From Patescibacteria group bacterium (GTDB lineage Bacteria; Patescibacteriota; Microgenomatia; UBA8517), in NCBI GenBank assembly GCA_041742135.1, contig JBGSJG010000004.1, positions 235,773 through 299,772 on the forward strand: 64,000 nt of DNA, written 5' to 3'. The position numbers and the translations under genes are program-made. The notes under the pieces were generated by a model, which had not been told where the DNA came from, made no database searches, and worked only from the letters and a program-made list of their open reading frames with translations. Position 1 is the stretch's first letter. Every line of letters starts with the position of its first letter. Of the stretch, positions 904-21,222 are shown piece by piece.

Positions 904-1665
904 ATGGTAAAAGCCCTAAAACATCGCAAGGTTCTTGGAGTTAATATTACTGTCAGTCCTAAAAAGGAAGTGCTGGAATATTTATCCTATTGCCTCAAAA
1001 ATCGGGACAAAATATTTATCGTAACCCCCAACCCAGAAATTTTAGTTGAGAGCAGCAAAGATGAGTCCTTCAAAAAAATCTTAAACAAAGCGGATGTTGC
1101 CATTCCTGACGGTGTCGGCTTAGCCCTCGCGGGAGTACGAGGGCGAATATTGGGTAGAGAATTGTTTCAAGACCTTCTCGATTTGGCTGCATCAAAAAAT
1201 CTCAAAGTATATCTTTTGGGAGCAAAAAACGAAGTTAATGCACTGGCTACCAAAAAAGCAGCTAAAATTTATCCAAATATTTTAATAAAGGGGTGCGGGG
1301 ACTTTATGGTGTCAGAAAATGGAGAAATCGTATCGGAAAGTAATATTAAAATATACAAAGATATAATAAGCGATATCAACTCATTTGCGCCTGATCTTCT
1401 GTTTGTGGCTTTTGGAGCTCCGAAACAGGAAAAGTGGATTTATAACAACTTGGAAAAGCTAAACGTTAAGATCGTGATGGCGGTAGGAGGAACATTTGAT
1501 TACTTTGTAGGCAAAATGGCCAAGCCTCCAGATGTAATGGAGAAACTAGGCTTAGAGTGGCTATGGAGGCTGATCCAAGAGCCTAGCCGAGTGGGAAGAA
1601 TATTTAATGCTCTGGTGGTTTTCCCTCTTTTGGTTTTGAGAGCAAGGATTAGTCGACGGGAATGA
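904..1665 (+). CDS. WecB/TagA/CpsF-family glycosyltransferase (N-acetylmannosaminyltransferase-like)
   Basis: It is 253 aa with family-typical segments GVNITVSPKKEVLEYL, PDGVGLALAG and YLLGAKNEV..A.....YP. Confidence 0.65.
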   Translation: MVKALKHRKVLGVNITVSPKKEVLEYLSYCLKNRDKIFIVTPNPEILVESSKDESFKKILNKADVAIPDGVGLALAGVRGRILGRELFQDLLDLAASKNLKVYLLGAKNEVNALATKKAAKIYPNILIKGCGDFMVSENGEIVSESNIKIYKDIISDINSFAPDLLFVAFGAPKQEKWIYNNLEKLNVKIVMAVGGTFDYFVGKMAKPPDVMEKLGLEWLWRLIQEPSRVGRIFNALVVFPLLVLRARISRRE

Positions 1666-1885
1666 TTGTAGGCCTGCCTTCTTCCATGCAAAGGCAGCTG
1701 TTTGGGGGCCCATATTTGTAACCGCTGGGTGGTAAAGTCTGGCCGTCTGATGTGGTGTCTTTGGCACGAATAATCAGGGAAGAATCTCTACCTTCTTCCA
1801 TCCCCAGATCTCCGCGACCAAATTCATATTCCGGCATGTTAGTTAAGATAACTGATGTTTCCTATCATTACCTCTCAGAAGCATT

Positions 1886-2725
1886 TTATATTACAAAGAC
1901 ATAGATCACACTCAGAATCAACATCGTGACTTGAAGCGGGTAGTGCGAGGCAACAATCATAACTCCAGAGTTTTTATCTCGATCGGCCAGCTTTGGCTTA
2001 AAAAGACTCATCTGTCCTAGTGTCAGTATCACTCCAACAGGTATAAACCAAAGAGGCAGGAGGCTTGCCAAAAAGGAGTAGACGGCGAAAATCAAGGTTG
2101 TTAACGCGGCTATGTACATCAGCATGGTTGCTAGCCTTTTACCTACAAATATCGAAGTATTGTTGAGTTTGGCATTTTTATCTTCTTTGAAGTCTCGGAC
2201 TTGATTGTAAAGTTGTCCATAGATTGAGCCGATTGTTATGGCTAAAAAAAGGATCAAAGCTTGCCCCAGCCTTCCGGCGGAAACATAATACCCAGCCAGA
2301 AAGAGTAGCCCACCAAGCATTAGGCAGTGGCTTGCTATGTCTACCACTGGCCACGATTTTAGCCGTACCAGCTTCCATGAATACAAAAAGCCAAGAATGA
2401 GCGTGCTTAAACCGATAAGAAAAACTAATTGGCCTAAAAGGTAGTAAAAGAGTAGTGCTCCCGCGAAACTCGCGACTGATAGTCTTTTGGCTAAACGTAT
2501 GTCAATTTTTTTACCGTCGTCTTCGTTGTCTTCCAACTCATTAAAAACAAAAGCAAAACCGACCGCCGCGAGATTTGCCAGCACGATGACGATCAGCTTG
2601 GTAGGGTCGATTTTTCCACCTGAAGCCAATACTCCAAGTGTGTAACCAAACAAAGTAACTGGGACGGTGAAAAAGACGTAATCGCTAAATCTATAAAGCT
2701 TGGCGATTCTGCCAATATCTCTCAT
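1886..2725 (-). CDS. UbiA-superfamily membrane prenyltransferase; candidate lycopene elongase (CrtEb/Lye-like) from context
   Basis: It is polytopic. Motif 1 is NELEDNEDD (the N-x3-D-x3-D type) and motif 2 is YNQVRDFKED (the Y-x4-D-x3-D type). The start is taken at the internal Met MRDIG to avoid a divergent overlap with idi. The ORF finder placed the start at 2788. Confidence 0.6.
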   Translation of the reverse strand: MRDIGRIAKLYRFSDYVFFTVPVTLFGYTLGVLASGGKIDPTKLIVIVLANLAAVGFAFVFNELEDNEDDGKKIDIRLAKRLSVASFAGALLFYYLLGQLVFLIGLSTLILGFLYSWKLVRLKSWPVVDIASHCLMLGGLLFLAGYYVSAGRLGQALILFLAITIGSIYGQLYNQVRDFKEDKNAKLNNTSIFVGKRLATMLMYIAALTTLIFAVYSFLASLLPLWFIPVGVILTLGQMSLFKPKLADRDKNSGVMIVASHYPLQVTMLILSVIYVFVI

Positions 2726-2760
2726 CTTTCTATGGTACAGATAAGGTCTATGGATTACCA

Positions 2761-3810
2761 ATGCTATACTTGTGCGTGAGCCCGACAAGCAAAATTTCTG
2801 AGCGCAAAAAGGATCACCTAAGAATTGCTACTTCAGCGGTCTCCCAAACTGGGGAGAACGGTTTTGATAGTTACCGTTTTACTCATAACGCACTTCCTGA
2901 AATAAATTTTGACGACATCGATTTGTCGACAAGCTTTTTGGGCAAAAAAGTAAACTATCCCTTTTTCATTTCTTGTATGACAGGAGGAGTAGCTCAAGGT
3001 TTAAAAATTAACCGCAACCTAGCCGCAGCAGCCGAAAAATACAACATTACCATGGGAGTGGGTTCTCAGCGCGCAGCAGTCGAGCATACGGAGCTCGCCG
3101 GGCTTTTTATGGCACGCGAGGTAGCGCCTAGTATTCCACTCATCGCAAATGTCGGCTTAGTGCAGCTTAATTACGGCTTTACACATAAAGAATATCAAAA
3201 GTGTGTTGATATGATTAAGGCAGACGCTTTGGCTGTTCACATAAACCCAATCCAAGAAGTTATTCAACCAGAAGGGGACCGCAATTTTTCAGGTTTACTT
3301 CCCAAGCTCTCAAAACTAATTAGTAAAGTGTCAGTTCCAATAATCGCAAAAGAGGTCGGGTTTGGAATTAGTGAGAATGTGGCGCGGCGATTGTATAAGT
3401 CTGGAGTCAGAATAATCGACACTGCCGGCTGGGGAGGCACAAGTTGGGCAGTGGTTGAAGGCCGCCGCCGAGATGGCTATAAAGATTTGGGAGACTTGTT
3501 CGGGAGTTGGGGAATTCCGTCAGCTGAGTCTATCGTTCAGGTCGCGAGCTTGGCAAAGACCAAAAAAGATTTAGTTGTTCTTGGTAGCGGAGGAATTAGG
3601 AATGGAATTGAGATTGCAAAGGCTATATCTCTTGGGGCGGACTTGGTTGGCATTGCTATGCCTTTTGCCCGGGCCGCAATGATCTCGCAAGAAGAAGTGG
3701 AGAAGTTGATTGAGCAATATGCGCTAGAGCTTAAGGCTGTGATGTTTGGAGTGGGGGTAAAAAACATCAAAGAACTAAAAGGTCACAAGTCCCTTTCAAC
3801 CATGTACTGA
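2761..3810 (+). CDS. fni: Isopentenyl-diphosphate delta-isomerase, type 2 (FMN-dependent)
   Basis: SERKKDHL...ALPEINFDDIDLSTSFLGKK...FISCMTGG...GGTSWAVVE is the classic IDI-2 motif set. Its 3' end overlaps the convergent crtE-like gene by 28 nt. Confidence 0.85.
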   Translation: MLYLCVSPTSKISERKKDHLRIATSAVSQTGENGFDSYRFTHNALPEINFDDIDLSTSFLGKKVNYPFFISCMTGGVAQGLKINRNLAAAAEKYNITMGVGSQRAAVEHTELAGLFMAREVAPSIPLIANVGLVQLNYGFTHKEYQKCVDMIKADALAVHINPIQEVIQPEGDRNFSGLLPKLSKLISKVSVPIIAKEVGFGISENVARRLYKSGVRIIDTAGWGGTSWAVVEGRRRDGYKDLGDLFGSWGIPSAESIVQVASLAKTKKDLVVLGSGGIRNGIEIAKAISLGADLVGIAMPFARAAMISQEEVEKLIEQYALELKAVMFGVGVKNIKELKGHKSLSTMY

Positions 3811-4949
3811 GCGATACCATCAAGGTAGTCAATTGCTTCTTTATCCCATTTTTTACTAATCATCTCTGGGATTGCCTTTTGAGCCTTTTTGGCCCATCTA
3901 ACCGAAGTTTTAATTGAGTAATCCAAAGAACCTGTGTCTTGTACTATCTTTCTAGCCTCTTGGGCTTCGGCTTCCGTTAGTTCTCTGTTGCCCCAAATTT
4001 CAAGAAGGCGTTTGTGCTGTTTGCTATCAGCTCGTTTAAGAGCTTCGATGATGAGCAGGGTCATCTTTCCTTGGCGCAAATCAGAGTGGGCCGGCTTGCC
4101 GGTTTTTTCTGGATCCCCGTAAAGTCCCAAAATATCGTCTTGCAGCTGAAACGCTACACCTCCCGGGATTGCATACTTTGAAATAATGTCTAGATCCGCC
4201 TCGCTTGCGTGAGCAAGAACCGCGCCAGTGTGCAATGGGTTTTCGTAAGTGTAAATACTCGTCTTTGCATAATGCAAGTCAACAATGTCTTTTTCGCTAG
4301 CTTTACCATGTGCCTCGAGTGTAACATCGTACGCTTGGCCAAAACCTGTGTTGACAACTCCTCTAAGCATCCGGTTTATGGCGTTAAGTTTCAATTTTTC
4401 AGGAAAACGGCTACGGCCTAATATTTCATACCCTGCAAGTAAAGCAATGTCACCTACGTCAACTGCCATGCTGTGGCCGTAATGCTCGCTACTAAATCGC
4501 CAAGAGTTGTTTTTATGTTGCTTGCTAAAGTGCTCGTGGGTTGTTGGTTTGCCGCGACGGGTGTCATCTTGATCCATGAAGTCATCATGCATCAAAAGAG
4601 CAGTGTGGATCAGCTCAATACTTTTTGCTGCATCCAGAGCAGAAGCCTTGTCTTTTCCTCCGAGCAACTGATACCCGTAATAAATAAATGATCCGCGCAA
4701 GCGCTTTGCTGGTCGCAGATTGTGCTCTTTGATATGCCCCCAAATTTTTTTAGCCAAAAGACGTTCCTTATTGCTTACCCCGAATACATTTTTGATCTCT
4801 GAGTCAAAATATATCTTAAAATCTTCGTCGATAATCTTAACAAAAGAGAGAAGTGTTTCTTTTGCTTTTCGAGCTTTATCACTTTTGGTTTTAACCACCA
4901 CCTGGCTTATGGAACTCACAAGAGTTATATTATAACTAATTCGCTTCAT
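3783..4949 (-). CDS. crtE: Polyprenyl (geranylgeranyl) diphosphate synthase
   Basis: The first Asp-rich motif is LMHDDFMDQDDTRRGKPT and the second is FQLQDDILGLYGDPEKTGKP. KRLRG is upstream. The start could be 4949 (MKRISY) or 4964; both abut the crtI start. Confidence 0.8.
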   Translation of the reverse strand: MKRISYNITLVSSISQVVVKTKSDKARKAKETLLSFVKIIDEDFKIYFDSEIKNVFGVSNKERLLAKKIWGHIKEHNLRPAKRLRGSFIYYGYQLLGGKDKASALDAAKSIELIHTALLMHDDFMDQDDTRRGKPTTHEHFSKQHKNNSWRFSSEHYGHSMAVDVGDIALLAGYEILGRSRFPEKLKLNAINRMLRGVVNTGFGQAYDVTLEAHGKASEKDIVDLHYAKTSIYTYENPLHTGAVLAHASEADLDIISKYAIPGGVAFQLQDDILGLYGDPEKTGKPAHSDLRQGKMTLLIIEALKRADSKQHKRLLEIWGNRELTEAEAQEARKIVQDTGSLDYSIKTSVRWAKKAQKAIPEMISKKWDKEAIDYLDGIAQYMVERDL

Positions 4950-4964
4950 ATTATATAAATTCAT

Positions 4965-6434
4965 ATGGGCAAAAACATTGTTGTCATCGGAGCAGGCCTT
5001 TCCGGTCTAAGTGCTGCTGCGTTACTTGCTAAAAAAGGTGATAGTGTAACTGTCCTTGAGAAAAACGGAGAAATAGGCGGTAGGATTGGAATTTGGAGAC
5101 AAAAAGGATTCGTTTTTGACATTGGCCCTTCGTGGTACTTGATGCCGGAAGTGTTTGAAGATTTCTTTTCAAAATTCGGTAAAACGTCTAGTGATTATTT
5201 CAAACTAACAAAGCTTGATCCTTCGTATAGGGCATACTTCGCGAAAGATGATTACTACGATATTCCATCAGACAAAGAAAAAACTGCAAAGCTTTTTGAA
5301 ACCTTTGAAAAAGGTTCCGGACCAAAATTCCTTAGATATCTCTCTGCTTCAGAAAGTTTATACAAAATGGCGATGAAAAATTACATGTACGTAAACAACT
5401 ATCATCTTCGCAATCTCGTGAGTTTGTCTACGATCAAAAACATGCTCGGCTTTCCTTTCTGGCAGAGCATGGAGACTTTTGTCGGCAATAGGTTTTCGTC
5501 AAGTAAGATAAAAAAAATACTTCAGTATAATTTGGTTTTTTTGGGTGGAGCTCCCAAAAACACACCTGCGCTTTATTCCTTAATGGCACATGTTGACTTT
5601 AATCTTGGTGTTTTTTACCCCAAAAGTGGCATGTACGAGCTAGCCCGCGCAATTGCATCAGTTGCTTCGGAGCAAGGTGCAAAAATAAAACTGAGTCATG
5701 AAGTTCTTGGTGTGGTAACAGAAAAGGGCAAGATCAAATCATTGATAACAGATAAAGGCGAAATAAAGGCTGACGTTGTCCTAAACACTTCTGATTATTG
5801 GCACTTTGAGACTAAAGTTTTAGAAAAAAAGGACCGAAGTTATAGCTCGCAATATTGGAAAAAAAGAAAAGTCGCACCTTCAGCATTTGTGATGTGCTTG
5901 GGGGTCTCAAAGAAGCTTCTGAACATCCGCCACCACAGCCTATTCTTTGCCAATAACTGGGACGAGCACTTCGATACAATTTTTGGTTCACCGAAACTAC
6001 CCTCTGAGCCTAGTTTTTATGTATGTGCGCCGTCAGTGACAGACACTACAGTTGCTCCTAAAGGCTATGAAAATTTGTTTTTCTTGGTTCCTTTCGCTCC
6101 GGGGCTTAAACTCACCGAAAAGACCAAGGAGCAGTTTGCCAACAAGATGATCGAGCTGTTCGAAAAATATACGGGCGAGAGCGTGAAGAAGAATGTTGTG
6201 GTTAAGAAAATATTCGCAGTTGACGACTACAGGCGGGAATACAATGCTTTTAAGGGGACTGCTTTTGGCTTGTCGCATACTTTGTTTCAGACTTCGTTTT
6301 TGAGGCCCAATATAAAAAGCAAGAAGCTCTCGAATCTGTATTATGCTGGGCAATACGTCCATCCCGGGATTGGCTTGCCATCAGTTATAATTTCAGCAGA
6401 GATAGCAGCAAATGAGATCCATGCTAAACATTAG
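4965..6434 (+). CDS. crtI: Phytoene desaturase (CrtI family FAD oxidoreductase)
   Basis: The N-terminal Rossmann segment MGKNIVVIGAGLSGLSAAALLAKKGDSVTVLEKNGEIGGR..W...GF.FD.GPS and the 489-aa length are typical of CrtI. Confidence 0.85.
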   Translation: MGKNIVVIGAGLSGLSAAALLAKKGDSVTVLEKNGEIGGRIGIWRQKGFVFDIGPSWYLMPEVFEDFFSKFGKTSSDYFKLTKLDPSYRAYFAKDDYYDIPSDKEKTAKLFETFEKGSGPKFLRYLSASESLYKMAMKNYMYVNNYHLRNLVSLSTIKNMLGFPFWQSMETFVGNRFSSSKIKKILQYNLVFLGGAPKNTPALYSLMAHVDFNLGVFYPKSGMYELARAIASVASEQGAKIKLSHEVLGVVTEKGKIKSLITDKGEIKADVVLNTSDYWHFETKVLEKKDRSYSSQYWKKRKVAPSAFVMCLGVSKKLLNIRHHSLFFANNWDEHFDTIFGSPKLPSEPSFYVCAPSVTDTTVAPKGYENLFFLVPFAPGLKLTEKTKEQFANKMIELFEKYTGESVKKNVVVKKIFAVDDYRREYNAFKGTAFGLSHTLFQTSFLRPNIKSKKLSNLYYAGQYVHPGIGLPSVIISAEIAANEIHAKH

Positions 6435-7254
6435 AGGCGCAAAAGTTTTTGAGATATTCAGAAAGGGTAGTACAACATACTTTTTTAGCTCGTTGTTCTT
6501 TCCTAACCGCGAAAGATGTGACGTCTTTCGTGTCTACGCGTTTGTGAGGGTAATTGATGACTTTGTTGATCAAAAACCACAAAAGCTGTCAGAGTTAAAA
6601 GATTTTTTACAGCTTTATCACAAGGCTAAAAATGGAACTGTCGTGGGTAACGAGGTAATTGATGAGTTTGTGAAGGTTGTGACGCGAAACAAGATCCCGT
6701 ACGAATGGGTTGACGCTTTTATTGGCTCAATGGAAATGGATATTAAAAAGTCCGTTTATAAAACTATGAAAGAGCTGGAGGATTATATGTACGGCTCGGC
6801 TGAAGTGATTGGCTTGTTTATGGCAAAGATCTTGCGCTTGCCCAAAAAGTCTTACCACAGTGCCCAGATGCTTGGCAAAGCCATGCAGCTAGCAAATTTC
6901 GTTCGAGATATCAGCGAAGACACGTATTTAGGCAGGCAATACTTGCCGCTTGAGATAACTCGTAAATATGGATTAGAAGATCTTTCTAAAAGCGAGGCAA
7001 TGAAAAACAAAAAAGCATTTTCATCAATGGTTCAAGAGTGCGCTCAGGTGTATTTTTCTTGGCTCGCTGAAGCCAAAGTGGGTTTTGATTACATTCCAAG
7101 GCGCAATCTGATACCCATAAAAACTGCCACAGACATGTACAGCTGGACGATGAAACAAATTCAAAAAGATCCGTTTTTGGTGTTTGAAAAAAAGCTTAAG
7201 CCGGGCAAAGCTAGGATTCTCGCCAGCATAGTAAAAAACTTAATCACTACATGA
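6412..7254 (+). CDS. crtB: Phytoene/squalene synthase family (phytoene synthase)
   Basis: YFFSSLFFP...VYAFVRVIDDFVD and YLGRQYLPLEITRKYG match the trans-isoprenyl diphosphate synthase head-to-head fold motifs. The gene overlaps the crtI end. Confidence 0.8.
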   Translation: MRSMLNIRGAKVFEIFRKGSTTYFFSSLFFPNRERCDVFRVYAFVRVIDDFVDQKPQKLSELKDFLQLYHKAKNGTVVGNEVIDEFVKVVTRNKIPYEWVDAFIGSMEMDIKKSVYKTMKELEDYMYGSAEVIGLFMAKILRLPKKSYHSAQMLGKAMQLANFVRDISEDTYLGRQYLPLEITRKYGLEDLSKSEAMKNKKAFSSMVQECAQVYFSWLAEAKVGFDYIPRRNLIPIKTATDMYSWTMKQIQKDPFLVFEKKLKPGKARILASIVKNLITT

Positions 7255-7907
7255 GTACTTACGCTACCATCTTGCTAATAATGTTTTTGCCGACTTTTTT
7301 GTTGAGTTTTCTCGCAAGGACCAAATTCGTTCCCAAGTTTATGAGTCGCGCGTCCAATTTGTTGATTCCAATTATCGCTTTTGTGCTCTGGGATATCGCG
7401 TTTACCCAAATTGGTGTGTGGCAGTTTGCCCATAAGCATGTTCACGAGTCACGCTTGATGGGTTTGCCACTTGAGGAGATTTTGTTTTTTCCTGTAGTAG
7501 CATTTTCCATGCTGTTTGTTTACGAGCTACTGCGGCAACGCCTAAAAGGTCAGTTAAATTTTCTAACACAAAGACGGGTTTTCTATTTGTCAGTCTTGTT
7601 CTTTGCAATTGGAATACTTACACACGAACGGCTTTATACCTCAGTTGTTTTATTGGCCGCATCAGGCGTTGTTTTTTGGGCAGGGTATACACAGATAAAA
7701 ATTGTTAGCTCGAAAGCGTTTGTTTTAACTTTACTTGTCAGTTTTGTGCCATTCATGATTTTCAATGGCTTATTGACCTCAATTCCTGTTGTAACTTATG
7801 ACTCGATTTACAATTTAAACTTTAGAATGGGTTCAATCCCAGTTGAAGATTTTGTGTATTCGCTTACGTTTTTAATTTGGATAATGACTGCTTACGAGAA
7901 CCAGTAG
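7251..7907 (+). CDS. Lycopene cyclase domain protein, fused two-repeat (CrtYcd/CrtYe-Yf-like)
   Basis: There are two PxEE-type repeats, GLPLEEILFFPVV...YE and GSIPVEDFVYSLTFLIW..AYE, each in a membrane-helical half. The start overlaps the crtB stop (ATGA). Confidence 0.7.
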   Translation: MSTYATILLIMFLPTFLLSFLARTKFVPKFMSRASNLLIPIIAFVLWDIAFTQIGVWQFAHKHVHESRLMGLPLEEILFFPVVAFSMLFVYELLRQRLKGQLNFLTQRRVFYLSVLFFAIGILTHERLYTSVVLLAASGVVFWAGYTQIKIVSSKAFVLTLLVSFVPFMIFNGLLTSIPVVTYDSIYNLNFRMGSIPVEDFVYSLTFLIWIMTAYENQ

Positions 7908-8343
7908 GGTTTTTGAAGTAGTGGTTTAAGATTTCTTCGACGCCAGGGATCAGTTTGAGTTTCGATGCCTCCTTGTAACTAAACCAGCCAAAATCGGAGT
8001 GCTCTTGGCTGACTGAAATCTTACTTGGCGCTTCAACCAAATAGACATGGCGTACTACAGAAACAAACTGCGTGAGAATTGGATGATTAAATGAAACGGG
8101 GAACTGGCCGATTTCGGATGTGATCATCGGGCTTTCACCTAATTCTTCTTGCATTTCTCGCTGAAGGCATTCCTTGGGTGATTCTTTCGCTTCTGTTTTT
8201 CCTTCTGGAAATTGCCAATAACCACGGAAAGCTAGCTCATTGCGCTTAAGTAGCAACACTTTGTTATCTGAATTCTTAATTAGAGCAGTAACAACATTTA
8301 CGCTTCGGAGAGGCACTTTCATAGTAAGATTATACAACTCCAT
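7864..8343 (-). CDS. NUDIX hydrolase
   Basis: The Nudix box is GYWQFPEGKTEAKESPKECLQREMQEELGE. The start is trimmed to MELYN or MKVPL to avoid an overlap with the divergent uppS. Confidence 0.7.
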   Translation of the reverse strand: MELYNLTMKVPLRSVNVVTALIKNSDNKVLLLKRNELAFRGYWQFPEGKTEAKESPKECLQREMQEELGESPMITSEIGQFPVSFNHPILTQFVSVVRHVYLVEAPSKISVSQEHSDFGWFSYKEASKLKLIPGVEEILNHYFKNPTGSRKQSLSKLKT

Positions 8344-8364
8344 GATATAATTTTTCCTAGACCC

Positions 8365-9645
8365 GTGAAGAAAAGCCAAAAACTTACGCTCCCTAAAGGA
8401 ACCAAAATTCCCAACCACATAGCCATTATTCCAGATGGCAACCGCCGCTGGGCGCGTGCCCGGGGGCTTTACACCCTAGAAGGCCATAGAGTCGGTTTTG
8501 AGCGTGCTGTTGAGCTTGCTCGCGCAGCCCGTAGTTGGGGAGTGCACACAATCACCTTGTGGGGATTTTCTACCGGAAATTGGGACCGCTCACCTAAGGA
8601 AATTCATTATTTGATGAAGCTTTATTCCAAGCTCATTGACGACTATATGAAGGACGCGATGAAGGAAGGAGTCAAAATTATTCACTTGGGCAGAAAAGAC
8701 AGACTGCCTAAAATTTTAATTAGAAAAATTGCTGAGGCTGAAGAAAAGACCAAAAATAACAAAAACTATATTGGCAACATCGCCCTTGATCACGGTGGCC
8801 ATGATGACATTATCCGCGCAGTACGAGGCATGATTGAAGACGGCGTGCCGGCTTCGAAGGTTGACGAGAAGACCTTTGAAAATTATCTTGACACCAAAGG
8901 CCAACCGTATCCGTATGTCGATTTACTCATTCGCACAAGCGGGGAGCAAAGAACTAGTGGGTTGCTTTTGTGGCAGATGGAGTATGCGGAAATGTACTGG
9001 GAGCGAGATCATTTCCCTGACTTTACTCCCGAGAAGCTTCGATGTGCGATTATTGATTTTTCTCGCCGAAGGCGCCGCTTTGGAGGCAATGACGCTGATG
9101 AGCATTTCAAGTTTAAGCCAGAGATTGCCGCAGGGCTTGAGCTTAACTGGTGGAGGCTTTCAAAAATCCCTGGAGACAAAACATTTGAGGATTATGCCAA
9201 GGCTCATATCAAAGAGCAGTGGGGGTTGTCCCTTTCGCTTGCTTCGCAAGCGTCAAAATACATGATACGAGCATTTCGATTTGGAAAGCGAGAGGATTGG
9301 AAAAAGGCAAATAAAAATCTGATGAGTTTTTATAAATTAATTAAAGAAGAAGTTAAGCTTGCTTTTGAGCCGTCACTCGCCGCATCGCTTCAAGTTAAGC
9401 TTTGGCAGAAAACGGAAAATGGTAAGAAGGCGGTACTCACAAGCGAGCTGGAGGACCAAACCCGCGAGCTCTTGACCGAGGTTTACAGGATCTCAGATTA
9501 CCAAGCGGCTAAAGTTGCACATCTTCGAGCTCTCGCCACTGTAGAAAAAAATCTTGCTGAGCATGGTGAGGGTGAAGAGCATTGGGACTTGGCTGAAGAG
9601 TATCTTCACATGTACTACAGAGCTTTGAAGGAAAAAGTTGCTTAA
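8365..9645 (+). CDS. uppS: Isoprenyl transferase (undecaprenyl-diphosphate synthase family) with an about 200-aa C-terminal extension of unknown function
   Basis: It has a GTG start. HIAIIPDGNRRWA, the G.....GF...N and ...RTSGE.R.S..LLWQ.EYAE.YW are cis-prenyltransferase hallmarks. The 426-aa length compares with about 250 aa for a typical UppS. Confidence 0.8.
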   Translation: MKKSQKLTLPKGTKIPNHIAIIPDGNRRWARARGLYTLEGHRVGFERAVELARAARSWGVHTITLWGFSTGNWDRSPKEIHYLMKLYSKLIDDYMKDAMKEGVKIIHLGRKDRLPKILIRKIAEAEEKTKNNKNYIGNIALDHGGHDDIIRAVRGMIEDGVPASKVDEKTFENYLDTKGQPYPYVDLLIRTSGEQRTSGLLLWQMEYAEMYWERDHFPDFTPEKLRCAIIDFSRRRRRFGGNDADEHFKFKPEIAAGLELNWWRLSKIPGDKTFEDYAKAHIKEQWGLSLSLASQASKYMIRAFRFGKREDWKKANKNLMSFYKLIKEEVKLAFEPSLAASLQVKLWQKTENGKKAVLTSELEDQTRELLTEVYRISDYQAAKVAHLRALATVEKNLAEHGEGEEHWDLAEEYLHMYYRALKEKVA

Positions 9646-9648
9646 GCG

Positions 9649-10599
9649 TTAATTTTCGATTCTTTTTTGGCTAACAAATTCATAAATCATTCTGGAAACC
9701 GTGCTTATTTGCTCGTTGGCTTGTTCTTCGCTGCCACGAACCATCGCACACAAGATATATGGTCTTTTGGGGACGTAAACGATTCCACAATCGCTAAATA
9801 TTTTTTCAGGTCTTAGTACTCCTATTTTGTGAGCAACGGGGACATTTTTGGGAATCCCCGCTGGAATTTTGTTGCTGAAGTTTGTGTGCTGAAGTATTTC
9901 GAGTACTTCATTCGAATGCTGTGGAGTAAGGTATGCAGATAGATAAAGCGCCCTAAATATCGAGGCATAATTTTTTGGGGAGACAATCGGAAGTTTGTTG
10001 TCCGAGTCTTTAGGCAGATCAAGATAGTCAAATATTTCGTCAAGAAAGGTGGGGTATTTTGAAAAGAGGACTTTGTAAGCCGTGTTGTCTGAATCGACAA
10101 GCATAGCATCGATTGCTTCTTGGACAGTGAGCGTGAATCCAGGTCCTTTTTTCCAAAGACTGCCAAAAGCGTCGTCGATGTGCTCGTCCTTTATTGTCAG
10201 TTTGTCTGTGAGTTTGATATCTCCCGACTCGACTCGTTTATACATCACCATTGCCATGGGCACTTTGATAAGGCTAGCTTGGTAGAATTCATTACGGTCA
10301 TTTACGCCAATCGAAGTTCCACTTGGGAGATACTCAAAATATATACCAATATCATTTAGTACCTCATCTGTATAACTCTTTATATCATTGCGTAACGGAG
10401 TGAAATTAACTATGACATCGTTTGCATTTTCCTGGAACACTCTAGGCGAGACAAACGCATACTTGTTTTCAAGTTGTCTAATTTTTGTCGTTATTGCTTC
10501 ATCCTTTGATTTGGTAAACAAAACTCTCGAAAGGGCGACATTCGCTCCTATACTTATCACAAGAAGAAACAAGAGTAGTATGCTTTTTGGCGTCAACAT
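9649..10599 (-). CDS. Membrane-anchored serine hydrolase, beta-lactamase class A-like
   Basis: There is an N-terminal TM helix. SLIK matches the S-x-x-K motif and DSDNTAY matches the S-D-N motif. KIG is a K-T/S-G-like variant. Confidence 0.5.
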   Translation of the reverse strand: MLTPKSILLLFLLVISIGANVALSRVLFTKSKDEAITTKIRQLENKYAFVSPRVFQENANDVIVNFTPLRNDIKSYTDEVLNDIGIYFEYLPSGTSIGVNDRNEFYQASLIKVPMAMVMYKRVESGDIKLTDKLTIKDEHIDDAFGSLWKKGPGFTLTVQEAIDAMLVDSDNTAYKVLFSKYPTFLDEIFDYLDLPKDSDNKLPIVSPKNYASIFRALYLSAYLTPQHSNEVLEILQHTNFSNKIPAGIPKNVPVAHKIGVLRPEKIFSDCGIVYVPKRPYILCAMVRGSEEQANEQISTVSRMIYEFVSQKRIEN

Positions 10600-10693
10600 G
10601 AGTAATTATTATAGCAATAGCTTATTGATTTCTAGTGCAAAATCGTGAAAAAATGACCAATGCCTACATATAGTATAGGCTTTTGTCGTTGGT

Positions 10694-13600
10694 ATGAAAT
10701 TGCTTGCCCAAAAAGTATTGTTTGATCAGGTTAAAATGCCCAAGTGGCAGTTTAAAGGTGTCTCAACCTTTATGCTTTTGCTGGGAGCTGTTGTTGGTTC
10801 ATATCTGACTACCACGAAGCTCTTGATTCCTTTGATCCGTGCTGCGGGAGATACTTACACTACTTGGGATTTTTCGGTTGACGAGAGCTTTACTCTGGGA
10901 GATTCGGACCAAGTTGAGGTTGCGAGCGATACCGCGGCAAGGCTCAAAGTAAGAACCTATGTTAGTGACGAAAATACTGCAGCGCTTTACCATCTCGACG
11001 AGACTGAAGGTACAATTGCTTCCGACTCTTCAGATAATGAGCTGAACGCAACAGCTACGGCAGCGAATTGGGAAGATGGAAACTTAAATAACGCATTTCA
11101 TTTTAATGGTAGCTCTGACAATATAACTGTTGCAGACGACGCGGCAATTTCTTTTACCGGGGCACACTCGATTGAAGCTTGGACAAAGTTTGATAACGCT
11201 TTCTCGGCTGGCAGCCATTTAACAAACCAGCCCGTTATTGATAAAGGTGATTACAGAGTTTATTTCAACAAAGAAACAGGAAAAATCAATTACGAGCTGA
11301 CTTCAAATGCACCAGCTTCTTGGGTTCAAACTGGAGGATCTGACTTTAACAATAGCTGGAGTTTTGCTACACACGATGCTGTTAAGTCGATCGCGGGAAG
11401 TAGCAGTAGCAATATCTATGTTGGGCTTGGAGGGGTCGGCCTAACAACTTTAACTCCAGATGAAGCAGAAGTTTGGCATTTTGACGGGACAGTGTGCGAA
11501 AATTGGTGGTGACGGAGTAAATCTTAGCTGGAGTTCCGGATACGACGAAGTTAACGCTTTATTGCTTGACGGCACAATCCTTTACGCGGCTGTGGGTAAT
11601 TCTGCGGGTGAAGCAGAGGTCTGGAAGTATGAAGGTGGTTCTTGGGAAAAGATCGCAGACAGTGCTCAACTTGGCAGCAGTCTTGAAAATGCTATGGCTT
11701 TGGCCCTTTATGATGACGGCGAGGGGGCCGATTTGTATGCCGGGACAGGCTACAGTAACGACGACGGAAGAGTGTTCAGATATCAAGACGACACTTGGAC
11801 TCAGATAGGTGGAAGGTACGCAGATGCCGGATATTCAAGTTGGGGGGATGCGGATAATGTGAATTACGTTTATTCCTTAGTTTCAGATGGCAATTATTTA
11901 TATGCTGGCCTTGGCGGTGCTGTAGATGAAGGGGAGCTTTGGAGATTTGATGGTTCCTTGGGGACAGATGGGCAGTGGGAGCGAATCGCGGGAACTGGGG
12001 CAGAGGCTAATTATCCATCAGGCTGGGGAGCTTCAGATGACATCGAATATGTTTTCTCTTTGGAAGTTGACGCTGATTATCTGTATGCCGGGCTTGGCTC
12101 CAACAATAACGATGGAGAAGTTTGGCGATTTGGCTTAATTTCTGAGACTTGGGAGCGGATTGGTGGGGATGGCGCGACCACTGCTGGTACTTGGGTAGCG
12201 GCAAGCGATAAGGAATCCGTACAAAGCTTGGCCGTTGACGGCAACTATCTTTATGCCGGAATTGGAAGTGGAGATTATGATGGTGAAGTTTGGAGATTTG
12301 ACCTAGTAACTGAGACTTGGGATCAAATTGGCGGTGATGGAACTTATACTAGCTGGAATAATACTCAGCGCGCGAGACGTGTGGATGCCCTAGAGATTAT
12401 CGGCGGCACACTTTACGCAGGAACATACAACTACACAGACAATGGGCAGTTGTGGACTTGGAATGGGGCGGATGATTGGACTCAGGTGGCCGGGGATTAT
12501 TTAGATAAGAGCTGGGGTTACTATGGAATCGATCGCGTAACTTCGATGACTGTAAGTGGGGAATATTTGTATGCTGGTTTGGGAATAACTGCAGGTGAAG
12601 CGCAAGTTTGGGAATATGATGGATCTGAATGGAGCATAATCGGAGGCCAAGGTGTAAACGGTAGCTGGCCTGCCGACACAATAGAGGCCGTTTATTCACT
12701 GACGGGGGGTGGAGGAGATGTTTATGCTGGGCTTGGAAACACCAATGATGATGGCCAGGTTTGGAGATACCAAGAAGGATCTTGGACTCAAATTGCAGGC
12801 AAAGGTGCTGACGCTCAATACACGGGCTGGGGAGACGCGGATAATGTAAATTATGTGTTCGCGCTCACCGAGGATGATACATATGTATATGCCGCGCTTG
12901 GTAACGGGACAAATGAAGGAGATGTGTGGAGATTTCATAAAACAAACGAGCTTTGGGAGCAAATTGCCGGAGCTGGGACAGTACTTGCAAATGGCAAGTG
13001 GACAAGTGGCTATGAAGAGGTCAACACACTTGTTGTGGACAAAAATTATCTGTATGCGGGAGTAGGTAGAAGCACTACCGCGGACAGTGATGTCTGGAGG
13101 TATGACAAAGCTGCTGAGACGTGGCTTCAGATAGGTGGGGATGGCAAAAACAACTGTTGGAGCAGTGGATTTGAGGCGCTTTACTCAATGGCATTTTACG
13201 AGGGAGACTTGTATGTTGGCCTCGGGATAAGCACGGATGATGCTGAAGTTTGGAGATGGGATGGAAGCAGTTGGAATATTGTAGGCGGCCAAGACAATGT
13301 AAATGGGAGCTGGGACAACACCACTTACGAGCGTGTACAGTCTTTGGTTGCTTTCAGTGGCAAGCTTTATGCAGGACTTGGAATGTTTAATACAATGAGC
13401 GTCTCGCTTCTTGAGAGGACACGTGAGGTGGGGCTCATGAAAGCAATGGGGATGAGGAGCCATGAAGTTCGTGAGTTATTTTTGACTGAGTCAATGACGA
13501 TGGGATTTTTTGGAGGACTGCTGGGGATTCTCATGGGAATAGGAATAGGCAAAGGCTTAAGCATATTAATTTCGGTAGTTGCCGTTTCGCGCGGTGTTGG

Positions 13601-13742
13601 CGTCGTAGATATCAGTTATCTCCCTGTTACTTTTTCAACTTTCATCATGGTTTTGTCCATCATCGTTGGCTTGGTTACTGGAATGTACCCTGCAAGGCGT
13701 GCCACAAGAATCTCCGCTTTGGACGCCCTAAGGTACGAATAG
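10694..13742 (+). pseudogene. Frameshifted gene made of two overlapping ORFs (10694-11512 and 11460-13742). It has an N-terminal TM, about 12 tandem ~55-aa repeats (beta-propeller-like) and a C-terminal partial FtsX/MacB permease domain.
   Basis: The C-terminus LLERTREVGLMKAMGMRSHEVRELFLTE...GMYPARRATRISALDALRYE is an FtsX-domain signature. The repeat consensus is YLYAGLG..GEVWRFD...W..IGGDG. The two frames join if one G is removed from gacGGGaca near 11487-11489. Confidence 0.5.
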
Positions 13743-19667: not shown

Positions 19668-20288
19668 TTACTGAAATATCTTTCGTATTTTTACTTCTTG
19701 GTACAGGAAGTAGCCCAGAAGTGTTCCAGATAAGGAGAGCGAAAATATAGAGAAATAAAGACCCATTGTCCCCAATCGGGTAAACGAAAATATAAAACCA
19801 GACAAAAGCAAATAAATTGATGATAAAAATAAACTGGTCACGAGCTGGTATGGATATGTCCTATTATATATTTGTGCAACTGCAAAAATGATACCCACTG
19901 GTATTGCAGAGAGGGAGATTGGAAGATTAGTTAATAGTTCAAACGTCGAAAGTAATTCTAATAGAGCTAGGCTGAAAAGGGCAGATATATACCCGGAGTA
20001 TATTAAGAAATGGCTAATCGGACTATGAAATAAGTGAGTGGCTATAAATTGTGTTTTAAACGCAGTAACCCTTCGCAGATTTGGTAAGGTAAATGCTTCG
20101 AGGACAACAGATGTTATGTAAATGCCGCTCCCGTAGCAGGTCAATCCTGTGACAAGTAAAAAAAATGAAGAAATTAATATAGAAATTGAAGCAGCTGGAA
20201 ATTTAAAATGCAAGATGCTGATAAACATAATTTGAAACAGCATGTATACAGCTGAAATAAGAAAGATATTGGCAAGAGTTAAAATCAT
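19668..20288 (-). CDS. Hypothetical polytopic membrane protein, about 33 % GC, inserted between rplA and rplJ
   Basis: It is a roughly 207-aa hydrophobic ORF starting from the internal Met MILTLANIFL. The ORF finder's 20477 start overlaps rplA and its first 60 aa look non-coding. Its GC is markedly lower than the flanking genes. Confidence 0.4.
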   Translation of the reverse strand: MILTLANIFLISAVYMLFQIMFISILHFKFPAASISILISSFFLLVTGLTCYGSGIYITSVVLEAFTLPNLRRVTAFKTQFIATHLFHSPISHFLIYSGYISALFSLALLELLSTFELLTNLPISLSAIPVGIIFAVAQIYNRTYPYQLVTSLFLSSIYLLLSGFIFSFTRLGTMGLYFSIFSLSLSGTLLGYFLYQEVKIRKIFQ

Positions 20289-20466
20289 AACTCGCCGTTG
20301 AGAAAACCCTCCCTCGCCATTTACTTGATGCTTCACTGTTTTGTTGCGAAAGTAAATATAAAGCGAGTTCCTATGAGTGTACCTAAAGATAAAATTAAAA
20401 GTACACGCTCGTGAATCAACATATACCTTATTTAAGCATGAAATGCTTTTGATCGTAAGAAGGTGT

Positions 20467-21222
20467 TTACTCAACAACCAGCTTCACAGAAGGGCCCATC
20501 GTGGCTTTTACGTACGCTTTGACGATTTGCTTTCGATTAATTGCATCCAAAAGCGCATTCAGGTTTTCAGTAAGTTCGCTGTCCTTCATGCTCAATTTGC
20601 CAACAACTGTGTGAATTAATGGAGCTGATTTTTCGGTTTTGATAGTGACTTTGCTTACATTAAATTTCGCGGCGTCTTTTTTGTCTTTGATAACAGTTCC
20701 GTTTTTGGGATTAGGCATAAGGCCGCGGGGACCCAAGACTCGGGCGTAGGAAACTAACTTTGGCATCATCTCAGCTGTAGCCAAAAGGATATCAAAATCA
20801 ATCTTTCCACTTTCAAGTTTTTTGATTGTGTTTTCATCCGCCACTTCAACAACTTTAATTCTGCCTGCTTGATGGGGAAGCTCGACGTTTACTGCGAGGC
20901 CTTCTTTTCGGACAACCAAATGTAGCTCAAGTGTTCCATCAAAACTTGATAGGGAAGTCTCGCGAGCTAAAGTAATAGCTTGGCTAATCTGGTAAAGCTT
21001 GGCGTGGTCAACTTTGGCTTTTGCCTCAAGATAATTTTTGCTACGTACTCTTGCTTTTTTGAGCTTTTTTGCGGCTTCAGACTCAGAAATGACTGGAGTT
21101 GCATCGATCATGGCTACACGCTCTCCGCCTTTTTGGCCGGCAACATGAATTTTCTCTTTTTTCTCTTTCTTTTCTTTTTTGGCGTCTAGGTCACCAATGA
21201 ATGCTGTTTTAGTTTTTCCCAT
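20467..21222 (-). CDS. rplA: 50S ribosomal protein L1
   Basis: It shows L1 family similarity throughout, with a K/E-rich N-terminus. Confidence 0.9.
   Translation of the reverse strand: MGKTKTAFIGDLDAKKEKKEKKEKIHVAGQKGGERVAMIDATPVISESEAAKKLKKARVRSKNYLEAKAKVDHAKLYQISQAITLARETSLSSFDGTLELHLVVRKEGLAVNVELPHQAGRIKVVEVADENTIKKLESGKIDFDILLATAEMMPKLVSYARVLGPRGLMPNPKNGTVIKDKKDAAKFNVSKVTIKTEKSAPLIHTVVGKLSMKDSELTENLNALLDAINRKQIVKAYVKATMGPSVKLVVE

What the first reader, a model, noticed from the sequence alone, without database searches (positions are those of the whole stretch)
1886..9645. Complete-looking carotenoid and isoprenoid cluster, possibly C50-type, in a small-genome CPR-like bacterium
Ten kilobases carry, divergently arranged, a UbiA prenyltransferase, type-2 IDI, a GGPP-synthase-like gene, crtI, crtB and a fused two-repeat lycopene-cyclase-domain protein. 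A NUDIX hydrolase and an extended UppS follow. A UbiA-family enzyme sitting next to crtE/B/I with a heterodimer-type (CrtYcd/CrtYe-Yf) cyclase is the arrangement known for C50 carotenoids in Corynebacterium, Micrococcus and haloarchaea. It is also the cyclase type that supplies beta-carotene to rhodopsin-bearing Actinobacteria. Carotenoid pathways are not expected in reduced Patescibacteria-like genomes, where rhodopsins have been reported without retinal synthesis, so this would be a notable gain.
Basis: partly seen in the sequence, partly recalled or inferred. Interest (0 to 1): 0.75.

Follow-up and report, generated by a model that had tools for sequence, protein, structure and literature searches.

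The report
Carotenoid gene cassette in a CPR bacterium
A small-genome Microgenomates (CPR) bacterium carries an intact five-gene cassette for an ordinary 40-carbon cyclic carotene. The neighbouring UbiA gene that suggested an exotic 50-carbon pigment is an older resident of the site and does not belong to the pathway.

Summary
The contig is from a CPR bacterium of the Microgenomates group.

The C50 reading fails. The UbiA scores 25.8 bits on the NCBIfam model (cutoff 205) that recognises the UbiA genes embedded in crt clusters of Saccharibacteria and Woesearchaeota, which score 236-322. In five related contigs without crt genes, its orthologue sits directly beside the same extended UppS. In two crt-bearing relatives, the gene on that side is a sigma factor instead.

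So a cassette (IDI2, IDS, CrtI, CrtB, cyclase; 2761-7907) lies inside an ancestral UbiA|UppS gene pair. Two relatives carry the core (IDS, CrtI, CrtB, cyclase) against UppS. Its base composition matches the host, which argues against recent transfer or contamination.

The predicted product is a C40 cyclic carotene (beta- or gamma-carotene, possibly torulene). No rhodopsin, blh, cruF or elongase is present in the 64 kb.

Carotenoid genes in Patescibacteria are already published, so this is a new member of a known kind. Interest is moderate to low.

The parts
2761..3810 (+). Type-2 (FMN-dependent) isopentenyl-diphosphate isomerase. It is the left end of the cassette in this genome.
   Evidence: TIGR02151 scores 401.8 bits against a cutoff of 281.3. 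It is not seen next to the crt genes in relatives L049 and L050.
3783..4964 (-). GGPP-synthase-like trans-prenyl diphosphate synthase (CrtE role), divergent from crtI. The true start is probably about 13 codons inside this ORF.
   Evidence: PF00348 scores 182.7 bits. The best solved relative is Corynebacterium glutamicum GGPP synthase 3LK5, at 7.5e-44. It shares the DDxxD...RRG motif and the DDxLG..GD second motif. It is 68-76% identical to the IDS beside crtI in L048 and L049.
4965..6434 (+). CrtI-family phytoene desaturase of the 'CrtID' clade.
   Evidence: TIGR02734 scores 452 bits against a cutoff of 238. NF058655 scores 637.9 against a cutoff of 640. Closest solved structures are 4REP and 4DGK. 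It is 55-61% identical to the CrtI of L048-L051.
6412..7254 (+). Phytoene synthase (CrtB), assigned by family and context.
   Evidence: PF00494 scores 180.3 bits. Both Asp-rich motifs are present (VIDDFVD, RDISED..GRQYLP). No NCBIfam equivalog cutoff is reached. The same score pattern is seen for the crtB of Lewinella and Pedobacter.
7251..7907 (+). Fused two-domain (CrtYc-Yd type) lycopene cyclase.
   Evidence: PF18916 scores 83 bits over two stretches, and TIGR03462 scores 79 bits against a cutoff of 39. Each half has a PxE(E/D) motif (GLPLEEILFF, GSIPVEDFVY). It is 44-46% identical to the cyclases of L048 and L049.
1886..2725 (-). UbiA-superfamily intramembrane prenyltransferase of an uncharacterised clade. 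It is an ancestral neighbour of UppS, not a carotenoid gene.
   Evidence: PF01040 scores 71.5 bits. Every NCBIfam subfamily model scores 34 bits or less, and NF009516 scores 25.8 against a cutoff of 205. Orthologues at 49-57% identity sit next to UppS in L043, L045, L053, L054 and L055 with no crt genes. The AF2 model has pLDDT 93.5, and its nearest solved structures are AfUbiA and DGGGPS.
7864..8343 (-). MutT-like Nudix hydrolase lying between the cyclase and UppS. It is not a conserved part of the cassette.
   Evidence: PF00293 scores 64.9 bits. It is absent between the cyclase and UppS in L048 and L049. L054 has a Nudix gene between UppS and UbiA, but only the Nudix box aligns with this one.
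8365..9645 (+). Undecaprenyl-diphosphate synthase with a conserved 186-aa helical C-terminal extension. It forms the right border of the cassette.
   Evidence: PF01255 scores 221.7 bits on residues 22-240. The extension is conserved in five genomes (A1). The extension has no Pfam or PDB match. UppS directly follows the cyclase in L048 and L049.

Best explanation
A Microgenomates (CPR/Patescibacteria) genome carries an intact C40 carotenoid cassette. It lies inside what is, in relatives, a divergent gene pair made of an orphan UbiA prenyltransferase and an extended UppS.

Inferred pathway:
1. IDI2 balances IPP and DMAPP.
2. The IDS makes GGPP.
3. CrtB condenses two GGPP molecules to phytoene.
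4. The CrtI-family desaturase makes lycopene, possibly 3,4-didehydrolycopene.
5. The fused CrtYc-Yd cyclase closes one or both ends, giving gamma- or beta-carotene (or torulene).

The pigment most likely serves the cell's own membrane, for photo- or oxidative protection or for rigidity.

UbiA, Nudix and UppS belong to a separate, older polyprenyl/envelope neighbourhood (UppS | [Nudix] UbiA-HAD, WecG, MreB), not to the pathway.

Shown here: gene identities, host taxonomy, the position of the cassette, its presence or absence in relatives, and the non-membership of UbiA in the crt-linked family. Inferred only: chain length, end product and physiological role.
For: Gene families.

IDS: closest to C. 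glutamicum GGPP synthase.

Host: TopA's named relatives are all Microgenomates, Woesebacteria or Patescibacteria at 67-74% identity. The source contig is 453,693 bp.

Synteny with L045: MreB 81%, UppS 56%, ATP-grasp 64%, L11 65%.

UppS|UbiA adjacency without crt genes: five loci.

Cassette against UppS in relatives: L048 and L049, with IDS 68-76%, CrtI 55-60%, CrtB 58-65% and cyclase 44-46% identity to the window.

Left flank: a sigma factor, not UbiA, in L049 and L050.

Composition: the tetranucleotide distance of the cassette region (2761-8418) is 0.1295, against 0.1318 +/- 0.014 for other stretches of the window.

UbiA family: NF009516 scores 25.8 for the window's UbiA, against 236-322 for the crt-embedded UbiAs of L004-L006. 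Identity to those is only 23-33%.
Against: - No pigment or enzyme activity has been measured.
- CrtB reaches no equivalog cutoff, and CrtI sits 2 bits below the NF058655 cutoff.
- IDS chain length cannot be read from the sequence.
- Only 64 kb of a contig of at least 454 kb was visible, so modifying enzymes (blh, cruF, crtZ, a true elongase) could lie elsewhere.
- UppS-based and ribosomal-protein-based similarity rank the relatives differently. Whether the patchy distribution reflects one gain with losses or lateral spread within the group is therefore unresolved.
- That NF009516 and its sister models represent lycopene elongases rests on my recollection and on genomic context, not on a curated name.
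Confidence: 0.72

Rival explanations
1. C50 carotenoid pathway. The adjacent UbiA acts as a lycopene elongase and the fused cyclase-domain protein acts on a C50 backbone, as in Corynebacterium, Micrococcus or haloarchaea.
For: UbiA lies within 40 bp of the cassette, divergent from IDI2. Both Asp-rich motifs of UbiA are intact. True crt-embedded UbiA genes do exist in other CPR and DPANN genomes (PMC9948471).
Against: The window's UbiA scores 25.8 bits on NF009516 (cutoff 205) and 21.4 on NF009608 (cutoff 217). The crt-embedded UbiAs score 236-322 on NF009516. It lacks their ISRPRFWLY and SAVPDI..D signatures. Its orthologues sit next to UppS in five loci that lack crt genes. In crt-bearing relatives L049 and L050, the gene on that side of the crt genes is a sigma factor, not UbiA. 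No cruF is present in the window.
Confidence: 0.05
2. Provitamin-A supply. The cassette makes beta-carotene that a blh/brp oxygenase elsewhere in the genome cleaves to retinal for a rhodopsin, which would give a CPR cell an autonomous chromophore supply.
For: The cassette has what is needed up to a cyclic carotene. Some CPR do have rhodopsins without retinal synthesis (PMC9296517). Most of the genome was not visible.
Against: No Bac_rhodopsin, heliorhodopsin or BCD Pfam hit was found on any ORF of 100 aa or more in the 64 kb, including at relaxed thresholds. tblastn with bacteriorhodopsin and proteorhodopsin found nothing in the window or in about 55 fetched loci. The published CPR rhodopsins are in Saccharibacteria, not Microgenomates.
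Confidence: 0.1
3. The genes make a C30 product or squalene (a CrtM/CrtN or HpnCDE-like route) rather than a C40 carotenoid.
For: The best NCBIfam hit of the SQS_PSY protein is HpnD, at 126.9 bits, ahead of the CrtB models at 98. Its closest solved structures include CrtM-type enzymes. IDS product length is unknown.
Against: All those hits are far below cutoff, and the same ranking is seen for the crtB of Lewinella and Pedobacter. The desaturase is CrtI-type (452 bits), and HpnE matches only the FAD-binding N-terminus at 43 bits. A lycopene-cyclase-domain gene follows in the same operon. Only one SQS_PSY gene is present.
Confidence: 0.05
4. Artefact. The crt genes come from another organism through mis-assembly or mis-binning, or they are a decaying remnant.
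For: Carotenoid genes are unusual in CPR. The crtI of Woesebacteria Ch104a is split across reading frames.
Against: The cassette is flanked on both sides, on one contig, by genes syntenic with other CPR contigs. An independent assembly, L001, reproduces the IDI2-IDS-CrtI-CrtB stretch at 100% protein identity. Composition equals that of the host. All five ORFs are full length, and the core four are conserved in L048 and L049.
Confidence: 0.03

Closest known systems
CrtE/CrtB/CrtI plus CrtYc-Yd (heterodimer-type or fused) C40 carotene clusters, in particular those with an NF058655-type CrtI in Bacteroidota (Lewinella, Pedobacter) and Thermoplasmatota
   Same: The crtI-crtB(-cyclase) order is the same. 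The CrtI clade is the same, at 38-48% identity, with NF058655 as best model. The cyclase is the same fused two-domain type, at 29-34% identity.
   Different: The host is a CPR bacterium. CrtI scores just below the family cutoff (637.9 against 640). No hydroxylase, ketolase, hydratase or CrtD gene is nearby. The cassette includes IDI2 and abuts UppS.
C50 carotenoid clusters with a lycopene elongase: haloarchaeal lyeJ-crtD-cruF, actinobacterial crtEb-crtYe/Yf, and the lyeJ/crtD loci reported in Baikal Patescibacteria (PMC9948471)
   Same: A UbiA-family gene lies beside IDS, crtB and a CrtI-family gene. The CrtI-family protein is 45-48% identical to those in the crt clusters of Saccharibacteria L006 and Woesearchaeota L004, which carry an embedded UbiA gene.
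   Different: The window's UbiA is not of that family (25.8 bits against 236-322 on NF009516) and is not linked to crt genes in relatives. A cyclase is present instead of an elongase, and there is no cruF.
crtI-crtB-cyclase loci in related Microgenomates contigs (L048, L049) and in Candidatus Woesebacteria Ch104a (CP055308.1, L035)
   Same: The gene order IDS | CrtI-CrtB-cyclase is the same, followed by the extended UppS in L048 and L049. Identity is 44-76%.
   Different: The window also has IDI2, a Nudix gene between the cyclase and UppS, and UbiA on the left flank. L049 and L050 have a sigma-70 gene there instead. The Ch104a crtI is frame-split, and that locus is only 31-48% identical to the window's genes.
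Archaeoglobus fulgidus UbiA homologue (PDB 4TQ3) and DGGGP synthase (PDB 6M31), compared with the UbiA gene only
   Same: The UbiA fold is the same, with both Asp-rich motifs. These are the best profile and structure matches (7e-21 and 2e-8; TM 0.66-0.71).
   Different: Identity is 17-22%. The window's UbiA scores 28 bits on DGGGPS models whose cutoffs are 296-353. The acceptor substrate is unknown.

Membership tests
C50 carotenoid pathway (LyeJ/CrtEb lycopene elongase type) | The UbiA-family gene belongs to the crt-linked elongase clade | tested here: not met
   NF009516 scores 25.8 bits (cutoff 205), and NF009608 scores 21.4 (cutoff 217). NF010119 gave no hit at E <= 0.01. The crt-embedded UbiAs of L004, L005 and L006 score 322, 288 and 236 on NF009516. 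Identity to them is 23-33%. That these models correspond to elongases is inferred from context and my own recollection.
C50 carotenoid pathway (LyeJ/CrtEb lycopene elongase type) | The UbiA gene stays linked to crt genes across related genomes | tested here: not met
   Five relatives have UbiA next to UppS with no crt genes. In L049 and L050, the gene on that side of the crt genes is a sigma factor, not UbiA.
C50 carotenoid pathway (LyeJ/CrtEb lycopene elongase type) | Accessory C50 genes are present (cruF hydratase, or separate crtYe/crtYf C50 cyclase subunits) | tested here: inconclusive
   No Caroten_synth/CruF hit was found anywhere in the window. The cyclase is a single fused protein, and C40 and C50 cyclase specificity could not be told apart without reference sequences. 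The rest of the genome was not visible.
C40 CrtE-CrtB-CrtI-CrtYcd carotene pathway | CrtI-family phytoene desaturase | tested here: met
   TIGR02734 scores 452 bits against a cutoff of 238.1. The narrower equivalog NF058655 scores 637.9 against 640, marginally unmet.
C40 CrtE-CrtB-CrtI-CrtYcd carotene pathway | Phytoene synthase | tested here: inconclusive
   PF00494 scores 180 bits against a cutoff of 26, and both Asp-rich motifs are present. No CrtB equivalog cutoff is reached (98, 84 and 80 bits against 480-550). Bacteroidota crtB genes behave the same way.
C40 CrtE-CrtB-CrtI-CrtYcd carotene pathway | Lycopene cyclase with two CarR/CrtYc-Yd domains, each with a PxE(E/D) motif | tested here: met
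   TIGR03462 scores 79.2 bits against a cutoff of 39.4 over two stretches, and PF18916 scores 83 bits. The motifs GLPLEE and SIPVED are read directly from the translation.
C40 CrtE-CrtB-CrtI-CrtYcd carotene pathway | The GGPP (C20) synthase produces C20 | not testable with these tools
   The family is met (PF00348, 182.7 bits), and the closest solved relative is C. glutamicum GGPPS. Product chain length needs an assay.
Retinal/rhodopsin system | [quoted passage not shown] | tested here: not met
   No such Pfam hit was found in the 64 kb, and there was no tblastn hit to bacteriorhodopsin or proteorhodopsin.
Squalene route HpnC/HpnD/HpnE | Three genes are present, with an HpnE-type amine oxidase | tested here: not met
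   HpnE scores 43 bits (cutoff 283), on the N-terminal FAD motif only. There is a single SQS_PSY gene. HpnD scores 126.9 (cutoff 278.6) and HpnC 100.5 (cutoff 250.45).
CPR / Patescibacteria (Microgenomates) host | Housekeeping genes are closest to CPR genomes, and the contig is syntenic with CPR contigs | tested here: met
   The named relatives of TopA among the best 120 listed hits are Microgenomates, Woesebacteria and Patescibacteria, plus one 'uncultured bacterium' record. The UbiA orthologue carries the locus tag BH10PAT1. Synteny holds across MreB-WecG-UbiA...UppS-7TM-ATPgrasp-L12-L10-L1-L11. No 16S rRNA gene or full marker set was available.

The most novel reading that the evidence does not exclude
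A sublineage of Microgenomates makes its own cyclic carotene from a cassette fixed at, and in relatives probably co-transcribed with, its unusual extended UppS. The pigment would then be an integral part of the envelope or membrane of cells that cannot make their own lipids. Alternatively it would be the missing provitamin-A source for a CPR rhodopsin encoded elsewhere in the genome. Either case would be a first example of autonomous carotenoid-dependent physiology in this group.
Probability: 0.12. Interest if true: 0.6.

Novelty: new member of a known kind. Interest (0 to 1): 0.33.

Why it matters
CPR bacteria are regarded as biosynthetically minimal episymbionts. An intact, conserved carotenoid cassette shows that some Microgenomates keep a self-sufficient pigment pathway, which bears on their exposure to light or oxygen and on their membrane biology.

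There is also a practical lesson for annotation. A UbiA gene next to crt genes is not enough to call a C50 pathway. Here comparison with relatives shows that the adjacency is a by-product of where the cassette lies. Real crt-embedded UbiA genes in Saccharibacteria and Woesearchaeota are recognisable by a specific family model.

The finding does not change what is known about carotenoid biochemistry.

Tried and rejected
- **Reference elongases from plasmids.** tblastn of the cyclase and of UbiA against PLSDB plasmids, to obtain annotated C50 clusters as references, found no match.
- **More UbiA loci.** A metagenome-contig scan with the UbiA alignment returned only one 1.7-kb locus.
- **The rest of the source contig.** The NCBI 453-kb contig could not be retrieved through the look-up of encoding contigs. 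The exact UbiA is not on record, and CrtI returned only a 3-kb Logan contig.
- **Literature.** Searches for 'CrtID', PRK12875/PRK13105/PRK13595 and 'Ch104a' found nothing useful.
- **UppS structure.** The single-sequence AlphaFold model of the extended UppS was unusable (pLDDT 40.5). An alignment with locus-derived homologues was not accepted by the tool. The extension has no Pfam or PDB sequence match.
- **Insertion mechanism.** Repeat and promoter/terminator scans of 1500-9800 gave only chance-level matches. There are no flanking direct repeats, integrase or tRNA gene.
- **HAD remnant.** A remnant of the HAD gene that follows UbiA in relatives was sought and not found.
- **Candidate rhodopsin.** The unannotated membrane protein at 19668-20477 was considered as a possible rhodopsin and rejected. 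It has about 6 TM segments and no Pfam hit.
- **Other CrtI relatives.** L038/L052 and L056 sit in unrelated gene neighbourhoods with no synteny to the window, so they say nothing about this lineage.

Full report

- UbiA prenyltransferase, 1886-2788(-): PF01040, 71.5 bits. NCBI's own call of 279 aa puts the start at 2725.
- Type-2 IDI, 2761-3810(+): TIGR02151, 401.8 bits against a cutoff of 281.
- Trans-prenyl diphosphate synthase, 3783-4964(-): PF00348, 182.7 bits.
- CrtI, 4965-6434(+): TIGR02734, 452 bits against a cutoff of 238.
- SQS_PSY/CrtB, 6412-7254(+): PF00494, 180 bits.
- A 218-aa protein with two lycopene-cyclase domains, 7251-7907(+): PF18916 and TIGR03462. Each half carries a PxE(E/D) motif.
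- MutT-like Nudix, 7864-8418(-).
- UppS, 8365-9645(+): the catalytic domain ends at residue 240 and is followed by a further 186 residues.

The span is 7.8 kb rather than ten.

**Host.** The window also carries NusG-L11-L1-L10-L7/L12, S2, RRF, TopA, two MreB genes, PBP2, ThyX and similar housekeeping genes. TopA's closest relatives that carry an organism name are 'Candidatus Microgenomates bacterium' (74%), 'Patescibacteria group bacterium' (69%), 'Candidatus Woesebacteria bacterium RIFCSPHIGHO2_01_FULL_41_10' (67%) and 'Microgenomates group bacterium' (68%). Apart from one record labelled only 'uncultured bacterium', no named hit among the 120 best is outside the CPR. The exact CrtI, UbiA, cyclase and TopA proteins are recorded on one NCBI contig of 453,693 bp. 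The refutation criterion 'bins to Actinobacteria or Bacteroidetes' is not triggered.

**The UbiA gene is not a carotenoid gene.** Three lines of evidence agree.

1. Family models. On the NCBIfam UbiA-subfamily models the protein reaches at most 34 bits (MenA-like, cutoff 277). It scores 25.8 bits on NF009516 (cutoff 205) and 21.4 on NF009608 (cutoff 217).
   - A local HMM scan of the loci fetched with CrtI found UbiA-family genes truly embedded in crt clusters. These are in a Woesearchaeota MAG (L004), a MAG labelled Gammaproteobacteria (L005) and a Saccharibacteria MAG (L006).
   - Those three score 322, 288 and 236 bits on NF009516, all above cutoff, with NF010119 and NF009608 next.
   - They share signatures (ISRPRFWLY, YG.ND..D..TD, SAVPDI..D) that the window's protein lacks. 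It is only 23-33% identical to them.
   - The Saccharibacteria arrangement matches the lyeJ-crtD adjacency reported for Baikal Patescibacteria (PMC9948471).
   - That these NCBIfam models are the lycopene-elongase clade is my inference from that context and from memory. The models are named only 'prenyltransferase'.
2. Orthologues in relatives that lack crt genes at this site. Proteins 49-57% identical to the window's UbiA lie directly beside the same extended UppS, divergently, in five independent contigs without crt genes. These are L043 (NCBI GCA_965610445.1, locus tag BH10PAT1), L045, L053, L054 and L055.
   - Where the contig extends far enough (L043, L045, L054, L055), UbiA is followed by a HAD phosphatase. 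WecG follows in L045, L054 and L055, and MreB as well in L045.
   - L045 continues through 7TM-transglutaminase-like, ATP-grasp, RimK and L12-L10-L1-L11. That is the same order as the window, with MreB 81%, UppS 56%, ATP-grasp 64% and L11 65% identical.
3. Relatives that do have the crt genes.
   - L048 and L049 carry IDS | CrtI-CrtB-cyclase-UppS.
   - Identity to the window is IDS 68-76%, CrtI 55-60%, CrtB 58-65% and cyclase 44-46%.
   - The left neighbour in L049 and L050 is a sigma-70 gene, not UbiA or IDI2.

The adjacency that suggested a C50 pathway is therefore a by-product of the cassette lying between UbiA and UppS.

**What the UbiA might be.** The gene itself looks functional. Both Asp-rich motifs are present, and an AlphaFold model built on 49 homologues is confident (pLDDT 93.5). 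By profile and by structure it is nearest to the A. fulgidus UbiA homologue 4TQ3 and to DGGGP synthase. Its acceptor substrate is unknown. Its conserved partners (UppS, HAD, WecG) point to polyprenyl or envelope chemistry, but this is speculation.

**Nature of the cassette.** In this genome it runs from 2761 to 7907.
- The Nudix gene is absent between the cyclase and UppS in L048 and L049. L054 has a Nudix gene between UppS and UbiA, but only the Nudix box aligns with the window's. I treat it as flank.
- The HAD gene that follows UbiA in relatives is missing from the window, with no remnant.
- No direct repeats, tRNA gene or integrase mark the borders.
- GC content, GC3 and tetranucleotide composition match the rest of the window. 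The tetranucleotide distance is 0.1295, against 0.1318 +/- 0.014 for other stretches.
- An independent Logan assembly reproduces the IDI2-IDS-CrtI-CrtB stretch at 100% protein identity.

Contamination, chimerism and very recent transfer are therefore unlikely.

**Distribution among relatives.** The distribution is patchy, and the markers disagree. By ribosomal proteins, L048 (cassette present) is closer to the window than L045 (cassette absent). By the UppS catalytic domain, the cassette-less L054 is closest at 74%, and L048 and L049 are furthest at 56-60%. I cannot decide between one gain followed by losses and lateral spread within the group.

**Which pathway.**
- The desaturase is CrtI-type, not HpnE. 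HpnE scores 43 bits, on the FAD motif only.
- Its best model is NF058655, 'bifunctional phytoene desaturase/3,4-desaturase', at 637.9 bits against a cutoff of 640.
  - That model scores highest on Bacteroidota (Lewinella 777, Pedobacter 719).
  - It scores 655-698 on Thermoplasmatota, Woesearchaeota, L005 and L038.
  - It scores 612-615 on Saccharibacteria and L048.
  - The window's enzyme is thus a divergent member of that clade.
- The SQS_PSY protein's best NCBIfam hit is HpnD (126.9 bits), ahead of the CrtB models (98). All are far below cutoff. The crtI-adjacent homologues of Lewinella cohaerens, Pedobacter yulinensis and four MAGs show the same ranking, so that ranking says nothing.
- The IDS is closest to C. 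glutamicum GGPP synthase (3LK5, 7.5e-44) and shares its variant second Asp-rich motif.

With a fused CrtYc-Yd cyclase in the same operon, the best-supported product is a C40 cyclic carotene. That would be beta- or gamma-carotene, or torulene if the desaturase performs a fifth step. Chain length, number of desaturations and number of rings are inferred, not shown.

**What is absent.** No ORF of 100 aa or more in the 64 kb hits a rhodopsin, heliorhodopsin, blh/BCD, CruF, CrtZ or CrtW family, even at E <= 1 for ten of the largest unannotated ORFs. tblastn with bacteriorhodopsin and proteorhodopsin found nothing in the window or in any fetched locus. The rest of the contig could not be read, so a retinal link is neither supported nor excluded.

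**Comparison with what is known.** Carotenoid genes in Patescibacteria are already published.
- lyeJ, crtD and cruF are reported in Baikal Saccharibacteria and 'Baikalibacteria' (PMC9948471).
- crtB, crtE, crtYf and ubiA are reported in a Saccharimonas MAG (PMC11484240).
- The complete Woesebacteria genome Ch104a carries a crtI-crtB-cyclase locus with a frame-split crtI.
- I found no paper describing a cyclase-type C40 cassette in Microgenomates.

The finding is a new member of a known kind. It is a standard CrtE/B/I/Ycd pathway in an unusual host, with a well-defined position in the genome.

**Verdict.** Interest is 0.33.

Noticed in passing
window 8365-9645 (residues 241-426 of UppS); also L043 8675-9910, L045 8696-9886, L048 4168-5439, L049 4882-6156: UppS carries a 186-aa all-helical C-terminal extension. 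It has many invariant residues across five Microgenomates genomes (WWRL..IP, EVKLAFEPS, YRIS..QA.K.AHL) and no Pfam or PDB sequence match. Its function is unknown.
   Followed up: partly
L043, L045, L053, L054, L055; window 904-2725 and 8365-9645: These Microgenomates share a conserved gene neighbourhood: extended UppS, divergent from [Nudix]-UbiA-HAD, then WecG/TagA-type glycosyltransferase and MreB. The orphan UbiA clade is nearest to AfUbiA and DGGGPS. It may act on the polyprenyl product of UppS. The HAD gene is missing from the window.
   Followed up: partly
L006 11497-12399(-), L004 6031-6945(+), L005 12232-13104(+): UbiA genes scoring above the NF009516 cutoff lie inside IDS/crtB/CrtI-family clusters without a cyclase. 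The hosts are a Saccharibacteria MAG, a Woesearchaeota MAG and a MAG labelled Gammaproteobacteria. This is the arrangement expected for a minimal C50 (bacterioruberin-like) route in small-genome organisms.
   Followed up: partly
window 19668-20477 (-): An unannotated membrane protein (about 6 TM segments, no Pfam hit even at E <= 1) is wedged between rplA and rplJ in the L11-L1-L10-L12 operon. L045 has no gene called between rplA and rplJ.
   Followed up: partly
L035 10001-11470 (Candidatus Woesebacteria Ch104a, CP055308.1): The crtI of this 'complete' genome is split over at least two reading frames (32 stops in the single-frame translation), while crtB and the cyclase are intact. It is either a pseudogene or a sequencing error.
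   Followed up: no
L049 2-463(-), L050 1784-2509(-), L051 440-1165(-): A 241-aa sigma-70 (regions 2 and 4) gene lies directly upstream of the crt genes in two related lineages. It may be a dedicated regulator. There is no counterpart beside the window's cassette.
   Followed up: no
window 9649-13742: A class-A beta-lactamase-like gene (PF13354, 142.9 bits) is followed by two large repeat-rich ORFs (272 and 760 aa, rich in Tyr, Gly, Asp and Trp). The second ends in a cluster of predicted TM segments. These genes sit between UppS and the 7TM/ATP-grasp genes only in this genome.
   Followed up: no
window 4964/4965, 2725-2761 and 3783-3810: The cassette is extremely compact. The maximal IDS and crtI ORFs start back to back, with 0 bp between them (about 40 bp if the IDS start is corrected). 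UbiA and IDI2 starts are about 35 bp apart. IDI2 and IDS overlap tail to tail by 28 bp. The promoter scan found nothing above chance.
   Followed up: partly
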